IMG/VR virus record: IMGVR_UViG_3300033446_000002
Location: 1-52,784 of that record
Direction: 5' to 3' (one strand)
DNA from: a virus
Lineage: Duplodnaviria > Caudoviricetes
DNA length: 52,784 nt
Positions within the stretch are counted from its first letter, which is position 1. Every line of letters begins with the position of its first letter. The notes under the pieces were generated by a model. It did no database searches. It saw nothing but the letters and a program-made list of their open reading frames with translations, and was not told where the DNA came from. Shown here piece after piece: positions 25,702 to 52,784 of this stretch. The position numbers and the translations under genes are program-made.

Positions 25702-26564
25702 TGTTTTTTTGCCTGTTTTGCTTTTAATTCCTTTATAGTTTCTTCAACCAGTTTTAAATTATTTTCTATATTTTCATCTTTTATACCTAACGCCACATAC
25801 AACTTCATTGCAGTCTTATAACGATTTTCTCTCGTATCTAATTTTCCATTTTGAGCTTCGCTTATTTTTCTTTTTATATTTGCTAATAGTTTCTGTATAT
25901 CTGGTGCAGCTTCAGCGGAAACTTTTGGTGAAACTTTATTAATAATATTCCCAAAAAAATTATACCATTCGGTTAATTCCATTTCTTTTTCTTGAATCAC
26001 AGATTGAGAGGTTGAAATCACACTCATGTTACCAGCCATTTGTCGTAAAATATACATTTGCTGTCTTTTTAATTTTGCTAACTCATTTTCAGTAGCTTCC
26101 AATGCTTTTCTACTTGGAAATGCAGTTGCGTTTCTTAATTTATTTTCAAGATTTGCAATACCTTTTGCGTATCCCGTTCCTGATTTTTCAGAATCATCAT
26201 AATTCGCTAATGCTACACCTATTTTTAAATCATATTGTTCAATTGATTTTGAAATTTTATCTATTTGTTTTTCGGCTTGTTTTAATATTACCTCAACTGT
26301 TTCAACAGAAAGATTGCTTAAATCATCTGATAGAGTATTTAACAACCCTATAGATTCACTATTTTGTTTAATAGTCTCTTGCATTTGTGCGATAATTTTT
26401 TTTGTCTTATCATCATCTGCGTTTTTAGATAGTTTTGCAATTTTACGATTTATTGTTTTATTGGCTTCAATCAATTTCTCTTGAAACCCTTTTATGGTAA
26501 AATCTTTTGGTAAATCTATACCATCCGCTTCTAACAACTTTAAAACTTTACTTGCTAAATTCAT
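25698..26564 (-). CDS. leader-family coiled-coil protein (MNLASKVLKLLEA)
   Basis: 288 aa, follows major capsid gene. Confidence 0.6.
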   Translation of the reverse strand: MNLASKVLKLLEADGIDLPKDFTIKGFQEKLIEANKTINRKIAKLSKNADDDKTKKIIAQMQETIKQNSESIGLLNTLSDDLSNLSVETVEVILKQAEKQIDKISKSIEQYDLKIGVALANYDDSEKSGTGYAKGIANLENKLRNATAFPSRKALEATENELAKLKRQQMYILRQMAGNMSVISTSQSVIQEKEMELTEWYNFFGNIINKVSPKVSAEAAPDIQKLLANIKRKISEAQNGKLDTRENRYKTAMKLYVALGIKDENIENNLKLVEETIKELKAKQAKKQ

Positions 26565-26592
26565 ATATATTGTCCTTTAATTGTATGGTTAA

Positions 26593-26628
26593 TGCCGTGA
26601 GGCAATAAAAAATATAATGCTCACGGCA
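26593..26628 (-). terminator. hairpin downstream of major capsid gene
   Basis: TGCCGTGAG...CTCACGGCA inverted repeat. Confidence 0.55.
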
Positions 26629-26636
26629 ATCATTAA

Positions 26637-27241
26637 TTATGCTACTATTTTAATCCGCACTAAGAAACTAGGTATAACCACTTTCAAACCAGACCAAACA
26701 GCGGCTACACGTTGATTTCTCAATGGATTGTTACCAGCAGACAATGTAGATGATACAAATAAAGGCATATATGGGGCATGAACTAAAGGTGCTTCAAAAT
26801 AAGACCCGCCTTTATATGCACACAAAATAGTGTCAGTATCAATGATTTGAGAAGCACGAATAACAGGAATGCCATTCAAATATCCATACAAACCAACGGA
26901 TTGATTTAAGCTACTATCTACAGTAGTAAATCCCGGCATTGCGCGCAATACAGCGGCAGCATTAGTACCTGCAATCATACGTGATATGTTACCACGACCG
27001 GCAGCAGCATTTAGCTTGTTTTCAGCGTTTGCAAATGCGTCAATAAACGTTAATTTATGTTCTGCATAACTAACACCTGCGGGTGCTGTTTTACTCCAAT
27101 TAACCACATTTAAACATGCAGCATCCATACGTCTAATAGCCACAGAATTGATAACTCTTGTCAATTCGCTTGTTAAATCTTGTGCAACTTCATCAGTTGC
27201 CATCCGTCCAAATCTTTTTTGGAAAGAATATTCTTGCAATA
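26637..27241 (-). CDS. major capsid protein (gp23-like), exon 2
   Basis: AYKGGSYFEAPLVHAPYMPL motif; in frame with exon 1 after splicing. Confidence 0.92.
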
Positions 27242-28037
27242 CATTATCTTTATTAGAATTCGTTACGTTCTAATTAATTTTGCCATTTATTTTATTTTTA
27301 TACTGCTACTGGTAAAGCATTATAGAGAATTGTTCTAGCTGTTAATTCAACTTCTAATTGAGTCGCCATATCAAACGCTCTTTTTACTATATTCTCCATA
27401 GATTCATGTGATGTAGTGGTGGTTAAAAACATACCGCCGTTTGTGGTTAATATGTTTTGAACTTCCGTTGTTACAAATTCGCTACATTCACGTCTTTTCG
27501 ATTCCATCAATACAAATTCAGCGCAATCACACATTTTTCGCGCCCTTGTTACATATATTTCACTAAGATAATCCATATTAGTTTCAGGTTGTATTTCACC
27601 CGCTACTGACGCACCCAATGAATATAATGTTGCTGTCATTTGTTCTAAATCTGCTGCTATTGGTTTATTTACTAGATATTTATTCGGCATTATTATTTTT
27701 CCAATAATTAGGTTGTTGTTGTTTTTGGCAAAATTACTCATGTTTTCACGATGAGATGGGACTATATCTTAAATGTTATTCACATTTTCCGCCACTTCCA
27801 TTCACTTGAATGTACAATTAGTCTCTGGACTTATACCCTTAAATTATTCCTATTTATCATTTTCATAAATCACTTTTTAAGTGGTAGGGTATTTAGCTGC
27901 TGATTATCCCAACCTATAGTCTTAATTAACGTTATTAAGAGTTACTTCACTTTTAAATTATTACTAATTTAATTAGCGTATAGTTTTTAACAGGATTTTC
28001 CAGCAATTCAACGGATTTATTCAGACCTATTCATTTA
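27242..28037 (-). mobile_element. group I intron (IA-like), 796 nt
   Basis: P AATTGCTGGAAA, Q AATCAGCAGC, R GTCCAGAGACTA (27819-27830), S AAGATATAGTCC (27758-27770), P1 with U.G wobble, terminal G. Confidence 0.93.
27298..27741 (-). CDS. intron-encoded ORF of unknown function (probable start 27690)
   Basis: lies in the P9 region; no GIY-YIG, HNH or LAGLIDADG motif seen. Confidence 0.65.
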   Translation of the reverse strand: MSNFAKNNNNLIIGKIIMPNKYLVNKPIAADLEQMTATLYSLGASVAGEIQPETNMDYLSEIYVTRARKMCDCAEFVLMESKRRECSEFVTTEVQNILTTNGGMFLTTTTSHESMENIVKRAFDMATQLEVELTARTILYNALPVAV

Positions 28038-28824
28038 AGCCTGATTCTGCTTTTAAAGAGAATACTTCTGCACGAATATTTGTCGATTCTAACGAACCAG
28101 ATATACCCAATAAATCATTATTGGCTTCCACATTGACACTGTATGATGCCACGATACTATGCACACCGGGATCGGATACAAATGCAATAGAAATAACACC
28201 TGTATCATAATTAATCGTTCCCGACATACCAGAACCCAATAATGCACCTTTACCATCATCAATAGCACGATAAGAAGTATCTGCTATTTTAAAATTCACA
28301 GTGAAGGGTCTTACAGGGACTTTTACAAGGTTAATAGTATAATCGGTTACACCTGCGACAGTAGCACCAATTGCTTCTTCTAGCACTTCATAACTGCCAT
28401 AACTACCACTATAATTAGAGCCTGTAGTTGCAGATGTTATGATTTCACCGGCTGTACGACCATAACCGGTAGTAGTTGCTTTAATTTGCTTAAAGTAAAT
28501 AATACCCGCTTCTTCTTCAATTGCTTGTGTTGATGCGATCAAAGGCAACACGGACGCACCATAACTGGCAGTAATTACATCTAAAGCCATATTAGGGATT
28601 TGCCCCAATTCTGCAAGCGTACCATTCGATTCTACGAATCGTTGATAATCTTCATATTGTTCAAGTTGTTTCCCTACTGCATATATATCACTAGGGTTTA
28701 CAGATTGACCAGACCGTGCAAGCAATGAATTTGATTCAAATGCTTCTAATTGTGGTCTATATTTTTTGTAATACAACTCAGCATCGCGTTCTACAAGTGA
28801 TTCATTTTGGCGTAACAAAGACAT
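28038..28824 (-). CDS. major capsid protein (gp23-like), exon 1; spliced product 463 aa
   Basis: STQAIEEEAGIIYF and RAEVFSLKA motifs. Confidence 0.92.
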
Positions 28825-28969
28825 TTTATTTATATTCCTTTTTTTGTATTTTACAAATCCTTATATTTATCAGATTTTATAGTGTAAAACAATAAAGTAA
28901 AAGAATTTAATTGGTTTTTTTAATACTAATAATTAAATCTATAGTGTAAATTTAATTATTTTATGCAAA

Positions 28970-30784
28970 TTAAGCGTTATTCATTAATCTACCAACTAAA
29001 GATTCATTTGCAGAAGCAGTTGGTTGTGGAATAACTTCACGGGATTGTTGACTCATTAAATACTTAGCACTATTCATGGCAGCTTTTACTTCTCCAAGAT
29101 TTTCATTTTGGAAAATTTCAGCTATTTCTGATTGTGATAATCCACTTTCATTCAGCTTCTCAATTGTGGTCGGTTTAGCACCTAATTTCTTTGCTAAAGA
29201 TATATTTTGGATACGTTTATGTTCTTCATTGATATGAGAAATTTTATCTTCTGCCTTTTCTAGTGCTTCTGCTACCATAGAAAAATTACCATTTTCATCT
29301 ATAAATCTATCGGCTTCTTCTAACACATAAGCAATTTCACTATAATTTCCATAGCTTTCTGTAAAGCCATCAGTTACTTCTAATATTGTTGATATTGTAT
29401 CGAAATCACCATTTTTATGTACAAATTGATTGGTTTCTTCTAACACATAAGCAATTTCTCGTAAATCGCCATATATATTAGTAAAATCTTCAACCATTTT
29501 CAATTTTTCTTTCAAGAAAGGATATCTTTGAATTTTATTTAGGTTTTTATCGGTAAATTCTAAAATTGCTTTTATTTCATCGAATGTACCAAATTCATCA
29601 ACAAATTCTTCAACTTTGTCAATAACTCTAGCGGCTTCGATTAAACTACCATATTCTTCTTCAAACTCAGCAATACGCTTGTTTGTCGAATTACCTTCAC
29701 CCATTTCATAAATGATTTTTTGATGTACTGATTCTAACGCTTCACGTATTTCAGACACACTACCTAATTCTTGGTATTTTTCTATTTTACTATTTAAATT
29801 TTCAATTGTTGCTTTTGTTTCATTTATATATGATTCTGTAGCACTCAACACTTCTCTAATTTCTGTAGGTGTACCTAACTCATTAGAGATCATTTTATAA
29901 GATTCGCCAACCTTTCTTGATTTTTCCAGAGCCTCTAAAATTTCAGCAGGCGTACCTAATCTTATATATTCTTTTATTAATTCTGATTTATCTTTGTTTT
30001 GTTCGTAACCAGATACACAATTAGCTAAAAATTCAGGTGAACCCAAACCTTCATATTGTGCCAAAGTTGCATTTGAATTAGCTAATTCTTTAACAGCTTG
30101 ATTGTATTGCGTTAATAGTGAATTACGTTCTTCTTTTATTGCTACGTGTTCAGTTTTTAAGTGATTTACAAAATCTTCAGTGAATTGTTCCATATTATTT
30201 AAACCTTTGTTTTGAGATTCTTTTGCTTCTATTATTGTAGGGCTTGCTTCGAGAAAACCCGGACTTGTGACGAAATCAACGGTAAATAACTTAAATCCAT
30301 CAGGAGATAAGATATTGGATTTGTCGCGTTCAAACTTACCAGCAGCACGAGTAGAAAAATATATCTTTCCTCCTGCTTTTAATATTGTATATAAATTTTT
30401 ACCAGCAGGAGTTCCCAATATCAGAAATTCCCCCATACCACAGTTTTTATCATCTAACCATAATTTAGAAACTATATGTGAAATTTTACCATCTAAAATA
30501 GCTTTATCATCTACGGGTTGCTCATGCCCTACAGTTCCATATACTGAGCGATTTTTTAGCCTTTCGACTAATTCCTCATCCTGTAATACCGTTTCCCATA
30601 ATTCTCTTGAATAATATCTCTTGTTTCTTGATTCTCTATTAGGAAAAAAACATTCACCTACTATTCGACCGATAATATGAGTTCCGTCAACAGGCGATTC
30701 CTTTCCTTCTTCAATTTCTATAATGTTTAAATTTGAACTTTCCCAAACATCATCTATCGTAACCAAAGTAGCAGGTTTTGCCAT
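28970..30784 (-). CDS. prohead protease (gp21-like) fused to scaffold
   Basis: SRNKRYY, GTVGH, ISH, GTPAGK, FSTRAAG, DFVTSPG, followed by coiled-coil repeats. Confidence 0.9.
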   Translation of the reverse strand: MAKPATLVTIDDVWESSNLNIIEIEEGKESPVDGTHIIGRIVGECFFPNRESRNKRYYSRELWETVLQDEELVERLKNRSVYGTVGHEQPVDDKAILDGKISHIVSKLWLDDKNCGMGEFLILGTPAGKNLYTILKAGGKIYFSTRAAGKFERDKSNILSPDGFKLFTVDFVTSPGFLEASPTIIEAKESQNKGLNNMEQFTEDFVNHLKTEHVAIKEERNSLLTQYNQAVKELANSNATLAQYEGLGSPEFLANCVSGYEQNKDKSELIKEYIRLGTPAEILEALEKSRKVGESYKMISNELGTPTEIREVLSATESYINETKATIENLNSKIEKYQELGSVSEIREALESVHQKIIYEMGEGNSTNKRIAEFEEEYGSLIEAARVIDKVEEFVDEFGTFDEIKAILEFTDKNLNKIQRYPFLKEKLKMVEDFTNIYGDLREIAYVLEETNQFVHKNGDFDTISTILEVTDGFTESYGNYSEIAYVLEEADRFIDENGNFSMVAEALEKAEDKISHINEEHKRIQNISLAKKLGAKPTTIEKLNESGLSQSEIAEIFQNENLGEVKAAMNSAKYLMSQQSREVIPQPTASANESLVGRLMNNA

Positions 30785-47339: not shown

Positions 47340-47894
47340 TTAAATAGTTTGAATAATTATATTAAACCCGCTTGATATATACTTGTTTAATAAGTGCGCT
47401 ATATCATCTTTAATTTTATCATTGAAAACTTCAACTATAATTTTAGTTTTTTCTTTGTTAAAGATTTTAACATTAAAATCTCGTTTAAAACAAGACCTTA
47501 ATTCTTTAGTTATAATATTTTTTATTATTTTTGCAGATGTATTGCCGCTGTTCAAAATGGTATATCTTAATTCTAAATATAAAAATGTACTCCTTACGCC
47601 TTCTTTGTAATTAAAAGATGTTATCTTAACTGGTTTTTGCAAACAACTCGATAATATTAACTCATACCATATTACAGAATATGGAGTGCAACCTGATTTT
47701 TCAGCATATTTTAAACCACTGTCAAAATTACATATAACTCCTATATCATCAGCCTCTATTCTTAATATAGCATCATTTTCTTCTTGTTTTTCAATATCAA
47801 CATTGTTTCTGATAACGACCGATTTTAATGGGATATTTCTATTAATATTTTTTTGTAAATACATGTATGTTGCAACAATAATTGAATTACACAT
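47340..47894 (-). CDS. hypothetical protein
   Basis: 184 aa overlapping ATP-grasp stop. Confidence 0.55.
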   Translation of the reverse strand: MCNSIIVATYMYLQKNINRNIPLKSVVIRNNVDIEKQEENDAILRIEADDIGVICNFDSGLKYAEKSGCTPYSVIWYELILSSCLQKPVKITSFNYKEGVRSTFLYLELRYTILNSGNTSAKIIKNIITKELRSCFKRDFNVKIFNKEKTKIIVEVFNDKIKDDIAHLLNKYISSGFNIIIQTI

Positions 47895-49344
47895 CTAATT
47901 TATATAGATAATCTAAAGTGCTTCGAGCTATACTACGTTGATTATCCGATGTCTTTTGATTTACATCTTCTTGTTTGTATTTGAAATTTACACCATATTC
48001 TATATCGTTAAAATAACCAAGAGAATGCAGTATTGGTATTTGATACTCCAGTCTATCTCCAATGTCAGTTCTATACATCAGTGAATTTGGTATTTCTATT
48101 GATTTCACTAATTTATATACTCTATCTTGAGATTCTTGAATAGAACCTCCTATTCCAATACAACACATAATAAAACCACCTGTTGTAGCAAACTCATTTA
48201 CATATTGAATTTTACCATCAATAATTTCAGGCACTTTAGTTTGCATTGCCAAAAACAATTTAATAAATTTTCTATTTTCTTTGGTTATCCCTAGAATTGG
48301 TATTCCTACCTGTTGCTCAACAGGTATTTTATCATAGGGATAATCTGGTTGTGATAAAACCACACATGTAGCAACACTTTCATCTACCCTCAATGTGTCT
48401 TTACCTTGTGTTAAATCCAATAAAAATTGGGCGGGATCGCCTTTATGTAAAGAGCTTTGTAAAGCAAATGTAGGATAACCAAATCTAGTTGTAAACTCTA
48501 ATGGATAGGGAATGCCTTCACCATCAATAATGCAATTAACATCTATATATCCCACGTATTTTATTTTCTTTAAATAACTTTCAATTTTAAATAAAACTTC
48601 TTGAGCTAATTTTGATTTAACACCTAAAATATATCTACCAACTGTTCCTTGCTCGTATGTTGCAACACCCAAATCATCATTCATGAGTTTTTTAAACTCA
48701 AAATTTTCAAAAACATATCTTGAAAAACCTGATTTATAACTAAACCAACCGCCAACTGCCATCTCAATTCCCTTGATGAATTTTTGCAAATAAAATTGAG
48801 GTGGCAATTTACCTAGCTTGTCCCAATGATTTAACATAAACAACAAATCGTTATTATTTCTACTGACATACGTCATAGATTTATCAATTGTTTCGCCGGG
48901 AGGTTTAAAGACAAACCTTTGATCTGAGTTATCAACAATATATTGTTCACATTCATATTTAGTGTTGAATTTTTTACATGGAATAGTATTGAAAATATTA
49001 TATTGTTTAAGAATCTCAATCCCAAATTCTCTATCAGACTCTAATTTACCACCCAAAGAACCTGTGCCAATTATAGGATAATTATCCTCTATCAATTTAT
49101 CTACAAGTTCGTCTTTGTAATTATTTGTAGCAAATAAGATTAAATCTTTCCCTTCTATTTTATCTTCCCATGATGAAGACATTTCCAACAAACCGCTACC
49201 TGTCAAATTATTTCTATCTGTACTGTCAATATAATAGGTAATATCATGACCAATAGCTATACAAGACAATGCAAAATCCAATAAATTATAATTTTGAGGA
49301 TCAATAATTAATATTTTCACTTTTTCTATTCCTTTATAGATCAC
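47887..49344 (-). CDS. PurD-like ATP-grasp ligase
   Basis: KLESDREFG, LQKFIKGIE, FEFKKL, YVGYIDVN, LEFTTRFGYP, YRTDIG. Confidence 0.85.
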   Translation of the reverse strand: MIYKGIEKVKILIIDPQNYNLLDFALSCIAIGHDITYYIDSTDRNNLTGSGLLEMSSSWEDKIEGKDLILFATNNYKDELVDKLIEDNYPIIGTGSLGGKLESDREFGIEILKQYNIFNTIPCKKFNTKYECEQYIVDNSDQRFVFKPPGETIDKSMTYVSRNNNDLLFMLNHWDKLGKLPPQFYLQKFIKGIEMAVGGWFSYKSGFSRYVFENFEFKKLMNDDLGVATYEQGTVGRYILGVKSKLAQEVLFKIESYLKKIKYVGYIDVNCIIDGEGIPYPLEFTTRFGYPTFALQSSLHKGDPAQFLLDLTQGKDTLRVDESVATCVVLSQPDYPYDKIPVEQQVGIPILGITKENRKFIKLFLAMQTKVPEIIDGKIQYVNEFATTGGFIMCCIGIGGSIQESQDRVYKLVKSIEIPNSLMYRTDIGDRLEYQIPILHSLGYFNDIEYGVNFKYKQEDVNQKTSDNQRSIARSTLDYLYKLDV

Positions 49345-50582: not shown

Positions 50583-52573
50583 TTAAAAAACTACATTATA
50601 CATGCTTTTTTTATCAAAGTCAACTTTAATTAAAGAATCTGAATAAGGAAAATTTTGAGCATGGGATATAATAAAGACATGATTAGCATCAATTAATTTT
50701 ATTGATTGCAGCACTTGCTCTGTATCTGAATCTCCTAAAAATTTAAATGTTTCATCAAATGACAATACTCCAATTTTACCTAGAATTCCATATAACTTCT
50801 CTAATATTGAAATATCTATAATTGTTTGTTGTCCGCCGCTACACATATCATATTTTATCCATTCATCATTTACTTTAAAATCAATATCAAAATCAGGTCT
50901 TACATCACCATTTGTTAATTTTTTGATAGATCGAACATTAATTTGATTATTTGAAAATATTTGAGATAACTCATTTAAAATTGACAGTAGAATTTCACCT
51001 TTTGGAGAAAACAATTCTAAATATTTCAATAAATCCACTAAATTAGACTCTTTTATTGCAAGAGAATGCTGTGTTTCCTTTAGAGTTGCCTCATCTTTTT
51101 CTATTTTTTCAAGTGAAACCTGATACTTGTTTTTTAATATAAGCAACTGATTAAAACCTGCATTTTCTTCTTTCAATCTCATTACCTCTTGTGAGGCGTT
51201 TATCGGCTGAACATTATGCTCTTCACAAACAGCAAGGATTTTGTGTTGTAAAGCCTCTATTTGATTTTCAGATGTAGTTATAATATCTTTTGCAACAACT
51301 AACTTTCTTTGGTTGTTTTGTTGCTTTATAAAATTATCTTCTTCTGCAAGAATCAACGAAATCTTATTGTCAATTTCAGATATAAGTGATTTAATTTTGT
51401 AATTTTTTAATTCAACACTTTCTATATCAATACTTTCTACGGCTTTTTTACCTTTTTCCAATCTGTTTTCGTTTTCTGAAATACTCAAATCTGTTTTTTG
51501 TTTTAGAGATTCTATTTCTTCTGCATTTAACGAATGTCCGCAAGCATGACATTTTGATTCTTTTAAGACATCTCTTTGCTTTTTTAAACTATCAATATTT
51601 AAATGAATTTTATTGATTTCATTTTTATATTTTTCTAATAATTTTTGTCTGCGTATTAATTCAGAGGTCGATTCTTCAAGCAAAGACAATAAGTTATTTT
51701 TTTCTAATAGTAACGGTGTTTTATCCGTTGATTTTGATAATAATTGTGGTAAATCTGATAATGATTCAACAACTTTGCGGTTAATTTGTTGTTGTTTAGA
51801 ATATGATTCTGTTTTTTCGTTTAATTCTATTATCAAAGAATAGATAGAAATTAATCTCAAATTATCTGAGATTAACGATTGATAATCAACATTACTATTC
51901 CAATGCGCTATCTGTTCCTTTCTTGCATTTATTGTCGCTATTTTACTGTTTATTTCATTTGAAATTAAACCAATCTCATTTTTTAATTTAGCAACATCAT
52001 CAACAACTAATCCGTACATCTTGTCTAATATATCTAAGTTTAGAATGTCAGATATTAAAGAAACACGTTCTGAATAAGAATAGCTACTTAAAAAACCTTC
52101 TCTACGCTGATTAAAGAAAAAAACATTAAATAATTTCAAAAATCTCAAATTATTTGAAATGTGACTTTTTATACTTGATTGGTTTTCAGATTCTATGAGT
52201 TTATTATTAATCTTGTATATTAAATAACCACTGTTTTTAGCGTAACCTCGCTCAATATAATGTGTATGTCCTTGATATACAATTTCAACAGAAACACTCA
52301 TTGACTTTGAGTTTAATTTAACTAAATCTTTTAGATTAATAGAATCTTTTGCATCTAAAAAAACATATCTAATAGCATTGACCAATGTGGACTTTCCACT
52401 GCCAACATCTCCCTGTATCAAAGTAATGCCTTCTTTGGGAGCGAATCTTAAATATTCAACAGAACGAAAGTTTTTTAATTCTACATAATTAATAGTAAAA
52501 TTACAATCAATATGTGATTCAACTCCATCTTTTATTTTATTAAAATAATGTGAATGAAGATGTGACATATCAA
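50583..52573 (-). CDS. Rad50/SbcC (gp46-like) ATPase; probably the 3' exon downstream of a group II intron
   Basis: LKNFRS, GDVGSGKS, CHAC hook, CSGGQ, FDE, ISH. Confidence 0.9.
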
Positions 52574-52784
52574 GTTGAGTCAACGCCTACTATTATATAG
52601 GACGCTTCTCGATTAAATCCGTGCATGAGACTTTCACCTCACACGGCTCCCGAATTTGTTAGGTTTATCAGACCTTTGCTATACGTGGAGTGGATTTCTA
52701 TGTGACATGAGCGATGTATTGCTATTAAGTTTTTAGGCTTGTTGTCACTGTGATTTCCATTTATATGGTGTAATTCAACTGGTT
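52574..52784 (-). mobile_element. 3' end of group II intron (domains V-VI)
   Basis: GAGCCGTGTGAGGTGAAAGTCTCATGCACGG (DV), DVI hairpin, ends ...GACTCAAC. Confidence 0.88.
52639..52782 (-). CDS. C-terminal HNH domain of intron-encoded protein (partial)
   Basis: VELHHINGNHSDNKPKNLIAIHRSCHIEIH; stop inside DV. Confidence 0.85.
   Translation of the reverse strand, partial: PVELHHINGNHSDNKPKNLIAIHRSCHIEIHSTYSKGLINLTNSGAV

What the first reader, a model, noticed from the sequence alone, without database searches (positions are those of the whole stretch)
27242..28037. Group I intron interrupting the major capsid gene
P/Q/R/S core is intact. P1 pairs exon TCAGGCT with GGTCTGA (U.G at the splice site), P10 pairs exon-2 TATT with AATA, and the intron ends in G. 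Removal gives ...AESGLLQEYSFQKRFG..., a 463-aa gp23-like protein. Phage introns usually sit in DNA-metabolism genes; here the most abundant virion protein would depend on splicing.
Basis: partly seen in the sequence, partly recalled or inferred. Interest (0 to 1): 0.78.

Follow-up and report, generated by a model that had tools for sequence, protein, structure and literature searches.

The report
Self-splicing intron in phage capsid gene
The major capsid gene of this uncultured phage really is split by a 796-base self-splicing (group I) intron, which is a known kind of thing, but the intron carries a small conserved gene that does not look like the usual intron-spreading nuclease.

Summary
Rfam's group I model hits the minus strand at 28047..27737 over its whole length, 55.6 bits against a threshold of 50. 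Removing 28037..27242 gives a 463-aa protein that aligns without a gap across the junction to four uninterrupted capsid proteins.

Contigs of three public runs, two of them metatranscriptomes, carry a joint that skips exactly these 796 bases. This cannot separate spliced RNA from an intron-less DNA allele.

The intron ORF is really 130 aa, starting at 27690. It sits in the loop of an 11-bp P9.1 helix and is acidic. It is under purifying selection (7 synonymous against 2 replacement codon changes). It matches no homing-endonuclease family.

A sister contig is 4-5% diverged in the flanks but nearly identical from 16 nt upstream of the intron to 343 nt into exon 2. That looks like a recent gene-conversion tract.

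Capsid-gene group I introns are already published (LittleE, Tuc2009, crAss-like phages), and this scan has noted them on other DNA. Verdict: real, and a new member of a known kind. The passenger ORF is the only unusual part.

The parts
28038..28824 (-). Capsid gene exon 1 (787 nt, 262 codons plus 1 base). The last base, U28038, forms the U.G pair of P1.
   Evidence: ORF list. Full-length alignment to annotated capsid proteins. tblastn to 19 IMG/VR relatives.
27242..28037 (-). Group I intron, 796 nt, ending in G27242.
   Evidence: Rfam RF00028 at 55.6 bits. A joint skipping exactly 796 bases in 3 of 4 laid runs. Same element at the same site in sister contig L009.
27737..28037 (-). Ribozyme part. 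It holds the P1 guide, P3 to P9 and a P7.1 hairpin (27812..27799). There is no P2. The L5 extension runs 27990..27912.
   Evidence: cmscan alignment. MFE fold and helix coordinates.
28027..28029 (-). In-frame TAG stop, three codons into the intron. Unspliced RNA would give a truncated 265-aa product.
   Evidence: ORF 28824..28027 of 265 aa. Sequence.
27726..27736 (-). P9.1 5' strand (UAAUUUUGCCA).
   Evidence: An 11-bp perfect duplex with 27285..27275. 0 of 2000 shuffles reach 11 bp.
27298..27690 (-). Passenger ORF of 130 aa including its stop, lying in the P9.1 loop. It is acidic, predicted all-helical, and belongs to no known family.
   Evidence: - **Start codon.** A 2-nt indel in L009, the gene callers' 130-aa form P0001 and the alignment with P0003 all point to M at 27690.
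- **Selection.** 7 synonymous against 2 replacement codon changes.
- **Family searches.** No hits.
27275..27285 (-). P9.1 3' strand (UGGCAAAAUUA).
27252..27274 (-). P9.2 hairpin (AUUAGAA / UUCUAAU, 7 bp). Nine bases and the terminal G27242 follow it.
   Evidence: Fold of the ORF-deleted intron. Coordinates.
26637..27241 (-). Capsid gene exon 2 (605 nt). Its first four bases, UAUU, form P10.
   Evidence: Pfam Gp23 E 1.3e-10 and PHROG 138. 35 phage records match it by tblastn, 33 of them over at least 80% of its length.

Best explanation
**What it is.** A 796-nt group I intron on the minus strand (28037..27242) interrupts the only Gp23-family major capsid gene in this fragment. The fragment is from an uncultured tailed phage and is about 29% complete by CheckV.

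**How it works (inferred from the family, not tested here).**
- The late capsid transcript folds into the P3-P9 core.
- A free guanosine attacks after U28038, which is held in the U.G pair of P1.
- The freed exon-1 end then attacks after G27242, with exon 2 aligned by the short P10.
- This yields mRNA for a 463-aa capsid protein.
- Unspliced RNA stops at a TAG three codons into the intron.

**Structure.** The layout is IA-like: a P7.1 hairpin, no P2 and a large L5 extension.

**The passenger gene.** An 11-bp P9.1 helix bridges 450 nt and loops out a 130-aa gene. That gene is a real protein under purifying selection. It is acidic, is predicted helical and has no nuclease signature.

**Most likely reading of the passenger gene (inference).** It is a passenger or cargo gene, not a classical homing endonuclease.

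**How the intron reached or left capsid alleles (inference).** This probably happened by gene conversion between co-infecting relatives. The break was made either by a nuclease acting in trans or by ordinary recombination.

**Confidence.** The stated confidence is for the intron claim. The cargo reading is much less certain.
For: **Shown here.**
- The RF00028 hit covers the full model and is above threshold.
- P1 with U.G, P10 and the terminal G are present.
- The spliced product aligns without a gap over the junction to 4 of 4 uninterrupted annotated capsid proteins.
- All 21 relatives that could be aligned at the site, of 23 examined, are uninterrupted there. The other two are contiguous across it.
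- A joint skipping exactly 796 bases at the predicted borders occurs in 3 of 4 laid runs. These are X17 and X19 (metatranscriptomes) and X8 (labelled RNA-Seq, judged probably DNA by the tool).
- The X19 joined contig has 0 differences from the window's exons.
- Intron-bearing contigs occur in the same runs.
- The P9.1 helix is 11 bp, and 0 of 2000 shuffles reach that length.
- The ORF shows 7 synonymous against 2 replacement codon changes over 84 synonymous and 306 non-synonymous sites.
- A 129-aa relative, P0003, is 33% identical over its full length, E 6.4e-11.
- The tract 28053..26899 has 3 substitutions in 1155 nt against 144 in 3302 nt of flanks, Fisher p 1e-15.

**Inferred.** The chemistry of splicing, the timing of expression and the route of mobility.
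Against: - No raw-read or strand-resolved RNA evidence exists. All four runs were Logan contigs, so the joined form could be an intron-less DNA allele present in RNA libraries.
- X20 showed intron and exon pieces but no joint.
- P10 is only four A-U pairs.
- Only two near-identical copies of the intron could be fetched, so no helix is supported by covariation.
- The Rfam score is only 5.6 bits above threshold.
- The subgroup call rests on recalled criteria.
- The cargo reading of the ORF rests on negative searches, an acidic pI (4.75, and 4.29 for the relative) and a low-confidence fold (pLDDT 54.7).
- The low-divergence tract could come from a recombination event unrelated to the intron.
Confidence: 0.92

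Rival explanations
1. The intron is a classical mobile intron, and its 130-aa ORF is the homing endonuclease. The enzyme would belong to a family not yet described. It would cut intron-less capsid alleles near the insertion site and drive the gene conversion seen against the sister contig.
For: - The ORF lies where phage intron endonuclease genes lie, looped out of a peripheral helix.
- It is under purifying selection.
- One edge of the low-divergence tract lies within 16 nt of the insertion site.
- New endonuclease families are still being found (F-CphI, PMC6083498, abstract seen in the listing).
Against: - There is no hit to any nuclease family in Pfam, PHROGs, NCBIfam, PADLOC or PDB sequences.
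- The protein and its only relative are acidic, pI 4.75 and 4.29.
- It is predicted as four long helices with no beta element (both low confidence).
- The cysteines are not conserved in P0003.
- No conserved histidine is seen in the list of invariant columns.
Confidence: 0.12
2. The joined form seen in public runs is only an intron-less DNA allele. The copy in this window is a splicing-dead insertion that has inactivated the capsid gene of a defective phage.
For: - All evidence for the joined form comes from contigs.
- The tool marks X8 as probably DNA and warns that RNA libraries can hold DNA.
Against: - The core is intact and scores above the Rfam threshold.
- P1, P10 and the terminal G are all in place.
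- The ribozyme part is more conserved than the synonymous sites of its own ORF. In the X8 copy the ribozyme has 2 differences in about 270 nt and the ORF has 11 in 393 nt.
- Exons stay open and conserved on both sides in two contigs that are 4-5% diverged.
- The element is seen in about 12 runs holding at least half of the sampled words.
Confidence: 0.04
3. The ORF is an intron-specific splicing helper (a maturase-like protein) that keeps splicing of the very abundant capsid message efficient. On this reading it is neither a mobility nuclease nor cargo.
For: - The ORF is under purifying selection and placed inside the intron.
- The capsid gene needs near-complete splicing. This point is also made for LittleE (PMC3706429, passage read).
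Against: - Known maturases derive from LAGLIDADG proteins and bind RNA (recalled).
- This protein is acidic and has no such domain.
- Two other introns in this capsid family manage without it. L026 has no ORF and L018 has a GIY-YIG-like ORF.
Confidence: 0.08

Closest known systems
Capsid-gene intron of mycobacteriophage LittleE (Pope et al. 2013, PMC3706429; passages read)
   Same: A single intron of about 0.8 kb sits in the major capsid subunit gene of a tailed phage. Exon 1 ends in U and the intron ends in G. Related phages lack it at that site.
   Different: LittleE's intron carries a LAGLIDADG-like gene on the opposite strand, and its splicing was shown by RT-PCR and N-terminal protein sequencing. 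Here the ORF is on the same strand and matches no endonuclease family, and splicing is only suggested by environmental contigs.
Group I introns in MCP genes of crAss-like Delta and Zeta group phages (Yutin et al. 2021, PMC7886860; passages read); Tuc2009 capsid gene intron (known to me only as cited in PMC3706429)
   Same: Group I introns inserted in core structural genes, including the MCP gene, found by genome analysis of uncultured phages.
   Different: Those introns were recognised through their endonuclease domains, and several can sit in one gene. Here there is one intron in a Gp23-family capsid gene and no endonuclease domain.
T4 nrdD (sunY) intron and other IA-type phage introns (recalled, not checked in a call), and the IStron layout (Hausner et al. 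2014, PMC3984707; passages read)
   Same: [quoted passage not shown] The P/Q/R/S consensus and a P7.1 hairpin are present.
   Different: The T4 introns carry GIY-YIG or HNH genes and sit in nucleotide-metabolism genes. IStrons carry IS605 transposases. No P2 is seen here.
Trans homing of the T4 nrdB intron by the free-standing endonuclease MobE (PMC2790892; abstract only, listing)
   Same: An intron without a working endonuclease of its own is still spread by gene conversion with co-conversion of flanking exon.
   Different: No free-standing endonuclease gene was found next to this capsid gene. The only HNH signal in the window lies at 52687..52776 and belongs to a group II intron. Only about 29% of the genome is in hand.

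Membership tests
Group I intron (Rfam RF00028) | Conserved P3-P8 core with P/Q/R/S sequence blocks, scored by the covariance model | tested here: met
   55.6 bits against a gathering score of 50, model positions 1-253 of 253, E 1.8e-11. Helices located.
Group I intron (Rfam RF00028) | P1 formed by the end of exon 1 and an internal guide, with U.G at the 5' splice site | tested here: met
   UCAGGCU 28044..28038 with GGUCUGA 28027..28021, giving U28038.G28027.
Group I intron (Rfam RF00028) | Terminal G at the 3' end and P10 with the start of exon 2 | tested here: met
   G27242. AAUA 28031..28028 pairs with UAUU 27241..27238, four A-U pairs, which is weak.
Group I intron (Rfam RF00028) | Precise removal from RNA at the predicted borders | tested here: inconclusive
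   A joint skipping exactly 796 bases occurs in contigs of 3 of 4 runs, two of them metatranscriptomes. Contigs cannot separate spliced RNA from an intron-less DNA allele.
Group I intron (Rfam RF00028) | Guanosine-dependent self-splicing in vitro | not testable with these tools
   Needs a bench experiment.
Group I intron (Rfam RF00028) | Base-pair covariation supporting the helices | tested here: inconclusive
   Only one other copy could be fetched (L009). It has 3 substitutions in the intron, none compensatory.
Subgroup IA (criteria recalled from Michel and Westhof 1990; PMC3984707 names P2, P7.1 and P7.2 as class features) | Extra pairings P7.1 and P7.2 (or P7.1a) between P7 and P3' | tested here: inconclusive
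   One hairpin, 27812..27799, lies in that position. No second one is seen and P2 is absent.
Gp23-family major capsid protein (Pfam PF07068) | Match to the family profile, and full-length homology to annotated capsid proteins | tested here: met
   Exon 2 scores E 1.3e-10 over profile positions 179-329 of 376. Exon 1 alone has no Pfam hit. The spliced product aligns end to end with the capsid proteins of Vibrio phages Va2 and 1.031.O, Ralstonia phage RP13 and Escherichia phage IME392. A head maturation protease gene lies directly upstream.
[quoted passage not shown] | Match to a family profile or its conserved catalytic residues | tested here: not met
   No family at E <= 0.1 apart from chance-level rows in Pfam, PHROGs, NCBIfam and PADLOC. 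No PDB sequence at E <= 1. No Foldseek match at E <= 0.001 (poor model).

The most novel reading that the evidence does not exclude
The intron is a vehicle for a non-nuclease cargo gene. The cargo is a 130-aa acidic, helical protein of a two-member orphan family. It is kept by selection in the P9.1 loop and is expressed with, or released from, the most abundant late transcript. The intron itself still moves between capsid alleles without an endonuclease of its own, mobilised in trans or by plain recombination. That would make it a cargo-carrying group I intron rather than a selfish endonuclease carrier. It could also explain why the intron piece is four times deeper than the capsid exons in run X8 (several hosts or sites, or a stable excised RNA).
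Probability: 0.3. Interest if true: 0.65.

Novelty: new member of a known kind. Interest (0 to 1): 0.36.

Why it matters
- **Annotation.** The case is clean and precisely delimited, so it can be used to correct annotation. Gene callers split this capsid gene into two ORFs of 265 and 200 aa.
- **Intron load in this capsid family.** Two of 19 IMG/VR relatives carry different introns at two other sites. Together with the window's own lineage that makes three insertion sites, so capsid genes look like regular intron targets rather than exceptions.
- **The open question.** The conserved, acidic, non-nuclease-looking passenger gene, together with a conversion-tract signature, raises a testable question. 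Can phage group I introns carry and spread cargo genes, and how do they move without their own endonuclease?

Tried and rejected
- **Alternative 3' splice site at G27248.** It is in frame, but it adds two residues that are absent from all four aligned capsid proteins and it has no P10. Rejected.
- **147-aa ORF starting at 27741.** Rejected in favour of the 130-aa form. L009 has a 2-nt insertion in the A-run at 27727. Run variants carry 10-nt, 3-nt and 1-nt indels between 27690 and 27725. Seven of nine cluster members are 130 aa (one is 147, one 97). P0003 starts at the aligned position.
- **Similarity of ORF residues 17-52 to pre-peptidase C-terminal (PPC) repeats.** Seen in P0002, P0005 and P0006. 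P0004 hits the same stretch 12 times but scored no PPC domain. The match covers half a domain, the E-values are inflated by 4-13 repeats per protein, and the motif is not kept in P0003. I treat it as chance.
- **Structure prediction of the ORF.** The single-sequence model had pLDDT 50.3 and the 10-row alignment gave 54.7. Foldseek against the PDB gave only generic helical bundles, best E 0.28. Not usable.
- **ESM Atlas.** No usable hit for P0001 or P0003.
- **Where P0003 is encoded.** Not found in IMG/VR, JGI metagenome contigs or GTDB genomes. It is on one 5,568-nt Logan contig that I could not fetch.
- **More copies of the intron or its ORF.** Only the one sister contig was found.
- **Nucleotide similarity to INPHARED phages.** None at E 1e-5 for the 2.5-kb region. 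For the ribozyme alone there were only 23-29-nt core words at E 0.09-0.3.
- **Promoter and terminator scan, 26500..29100.** 11 promoter-like sites against 12.9 expected by chance. No information.
- **Run X20.** Intron and exon pieces, but no joint. No conclusion drawn.
- **Habitat.** No habitat is inferred from small-share runs.
- **Supplementary files.** Not opened. Those of PMC7886860 and PMC11878797 may list further capsid-gene introns.

Full report
**What is there.** The window is a 52,784-base IMG/VR virus record, estimated 29% complete. On the minus strand a 265-aa ORF (28824..28027) and a 200-aa ORF (27239..26637) flank a 147-aa ORF (27741..27298).

Rfam's group I model matches 28047..27737 (-) over its full length at 55.6 bits, against a threshold of 50, with E 1.8e-11. 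It is the only such hit in the record. Exon 2 matches Pfam Gp23 (E 1.3e-10, profile 179-329 of 376) and PHROG 138 major head protein. Exon 1 alone has no Pfam hit. A head maturation protease gene lies directly upstream.

**Borders.**
- P1 pairs UCAGGCU (28044..28038) with GGUCUGA (28027..28021) and ends in U28038.G28027.
- The four bases 5' of the guide (AAUA, 28031..28028) can pair with the first four bases of exon 2, forming P10.
- The intron ends in G27242.
- Joining 28038 to 27241 gives 1392 nt, or 463 aa.
- The product aligns end to end, and without a gap over the junction, with the uninterrupted capsid proteins of Vibrio phages Va2 and 1.031.O, Ralstonia phage RP13 and Escherichia phage IME392. 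The two Vibrio proteins share the ESGLL motif that is formed across the junction.
- An alternative in-frame acceptor at G27248 would add two residues that none of them has.

**Relatives.** Of 23 related loci examined, 21 could be aligned gaplessly at the site and all 21 are uninterrupted there. The other two, L027 and L028, are contiguous across it.

**Independent check of the borders.**
- The stretch was found in 20 run rows from 15 studies, covering microbial mat, wastewater, freshwater, plankton and sediment metagenomes.
- I laid four runs, all kept as Logan contigs.
- A joint that skips exactly 796 bases appears in three of them. It is listed as 27239 to 28036 with 2 bases fitting either side, which makes it identical to 27241|28038.
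  - X17 is a metatranscriptome: a 1085-nt contig at depth 33.3.
  - X19 is a metatranscriptome: a 151-nt contig at depth 2, with no difference from the window's exons over 55 + 96 nt.
  - X8 is labelled RNA-Seq cDNA but judged probably DNA by the tool: a 3696-nt contig at depth 63.6.
- X20 has no joint.
- Intron-bearing contigs are present in all four runs. In X17 one crosses the 5' splice site.

This fixes the element's borders to the base. It does not show whether the joined form is spliced RNA or an intron-less DNA allele.

**Architecture.**
- There is no P2. Four or five bases separate P1 from P3.
- P3 is 28015..28010 with 27793..27788.
- P4 is 28005..28000 with 27903..27898.
- P5 is 27995..27991 with 27911..27907, and has a 79-nt L5 extension.
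- P6 is 27892..27886 with 27839..27833.
- P7 is 27823..27819 with 27764..27760.
- A P7.1 hairpin lies at 27812..27799.
- P8 is 27786..27772 and P9 is 27755..27737.
- An 11-bp perfect helix pairs 27736..27726 with 27285..27275. It closes a 440-nt loop (27725..27286) that holds the ORF. 0 of 2000 shuffles give 11 bp.
- A 7-bp P9.2 hairpin (27274..27252) and nine bases precede the terminal G.

The whole core therefore lies in the first 300 nt, and the extra gene sits near the 3' end. The P7.1 hairpin suggests subgroup IA, but the criteria are recalled and only partly met.

**The passenger ORF.**
- *Start codon.* The real start is ATG 27690, giving 130 aa. The sister contig has a 2-nt insertion upstream of it. 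Run variants carry 10-, 3- and 1-nt indels in 27690..27725. The database cluster holds nine sequences, seven of them 130 aa, one 147 aa and one 97 aa. The only distant relative starts at the aligned position.
- *Relatives.* A full HMMER pass over 1.84 billion representatives found 7 proteins at E <= 0.001. One was the ORF itself. One was a full-length relative, P0003 (129 aa, 33% identity, E 6.4e-11). Four large repeat proteins hit residues 17-52 many times over, three of which carry PPC domains, and one hit only residues 69-108. I regard those five as chance.
- *Other searches.* No Pfam, PHROG, NCBIfam, PADLOC or PDB-sequence match, no Atlas lead and no Foldseek match.
- *Properties.* Predicted as four long helices at low confidence (pLDDT 50-55). 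Acidic, pI 4.75, and 4.29 for P0003. The three cysteines are not conserved.
- *Selection.* It is a real gene. The X8 copy differs at nine codons, seven of them synonymous, over 84 synonymous and 306 non-synonymous sites.

None of this fits a homing endonuclease or an RNA-binding maturase.

**Signs of movement.** Substitution rates between the window and the sister contig (IMG/VR, 12 kb):

| Region | Substitutions |
|---|---|
| Protease gene | 4.2% |
| Exon 1 | 5.2% (41 of 787; the last lies 16 nt before the splice site) |
| Intron | 3 in 798 aligned columns, plus a 2-nt indel |
| First 343 nt of exon 2 | none |
| Last 262 nt of exon 2 | 4 |
| Downstream | 3.8% |

The tract 28053..26899 has 3 substitutions in 1155 nt against 144 in 3302 nt of flanks (Fisher p 1e-15). 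One edge of the tract sits at the insertion site. That pattern is what intron transfer with one-sided co-conversion of exon sequence leaves, though an unrelated recombination event cannot be excluded.

Six-frame scans of the window found no GIY-YIG or LAGLIDADG signal. The only HNH signal lies at the far end, inside a group II intron. About 70% of the genome is missing.

**Other introns in this capsid family.** Among 19 IMG/VR relatives, 17 have an uninterrupted gene or gene part.
- L018 is split after about residue 105 by an insert of about 1.2 kb. It has an RF00028 hit (51.6 bits) and a 292-aa ORF with a weak GIY-YIG match (E 0.007, below the cut-off).
- L026 is split after about residue 325 by an ORF-less insert of about 310 nt. 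Its RF00028 hit is 50.9 bits. It was found only in the more permissive run, not in the gathering run.

With the window's lineage this makes three different sites in one protein family.

**Compared with what is known.** Capsid-gene group I introns are published.
- LittleE has one with RT-PCR and protein evidence, and the same paper cites one in Tuc2009 (PMC3706429, passages).
- MCP genes of crAss-like Delta and Zeta phages carry them (PMC7886860, passages).
- This scan's notebook holds 1178 notes with the words group, intron, major and capsid, including follow-ups on capsid genes with 5, 9 and 16 introns on other DNA (unchecked by me).
- Another first-stage note on this same stretch had already remarked that the ORF does not look like a homing endonuclease. 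My searches agree.

So the intron is a new member of a known kind. The part that is not ordinary is its conserved, acidic, orphan passenger gene, combined with evidence of recent transfer.

**Unexplained.** In X8 the 753-nt intron contig (27269..28012) has depth 252.9, against 63.6-69.4 for the joined exon contigs, and it stops about 25 nt short of both intron ends. Two readings are possible: copies of the intron in other contexts with different guide and 3' ends, or, if the library is RNA, a stable excised intron. I could not tell them apart.

Noticed in passing
window 52574..52776 (-): The window's end holds the 3' end of a group II intron. Rfam RF00029 domain V/VI scores 50.4 bits at 52651..52574. 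An HNH-like stretch at 52687..52776, presumably the En domain of the intron protein, lies just upstream (both below the curated cut-offs). The intron ends right at the start of an SbcC-like gene (50583..52583) and is cut off by the contig end. Group II introns in phages were reported only recently (PMC12350094, abstract seen).
   Followed up: partly
L018:109-1338: A capsid gene of a relative (about 41% identical) is split after about residue 105 by an insert of about 1.2 kb. The insert has a group I hit (51.6 bits, 986-1286) and a 292-aa ORF (277-1155) with a weak GIY-YIG-like match. The model's P1 alignment is poor, so the true 5' part of this intron is not defined.
   Followed up: partly
L026:2243-2552: A third relative has an ORF-less insert of about 310 nt with a group I hit (50.9 bits) after the AEHRL motif, about residue 325. 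It was missed by the gathering-threshold run and found only by the permissive run.
   Followed up: partly
window 27269..28012, run X8: The intron contig is four times deeper (252.9) than the joined exon contigs (63.6-69.4) and is not linked to them. A second 348-nt contig shares only 21-24 nt core words and then runs on unlike the window.
   Followed up: no
window 27691..27725 (-): The leader between P9.1 and the ORF start is an indel hot spot: 2 nt in L009, and 10-, 3- and 1-nt differences in runs X8, X17 and X19. The flanking helix strands are unchanged in L009.
   Followed up: partly
L003:3775-4518 (Ralstonia phage RP13): An annotated putative HNH homing endonuclease gene lies directly downstream of the uninterrupted capsid gene of this relative. 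It is a possible free-standing counterpart of the intron-borne elements in the family.
   Followed up: no
L010:5970-6042: A tRNA gene (69.3 bits) lies about 1.4 kb downstream of the capsid gene in the closest intron-less relative, whose capsid protein is 57% identical.
   Followed up: no
window 47887..49344 (-): A 485-aa ORF near the replication genes matches the phosphoribosylglycinamide synthetase (PurD-like ATP-grasp) domains GARS_A and GARS_C. A first-stage note also lists it.
   Followed up: no
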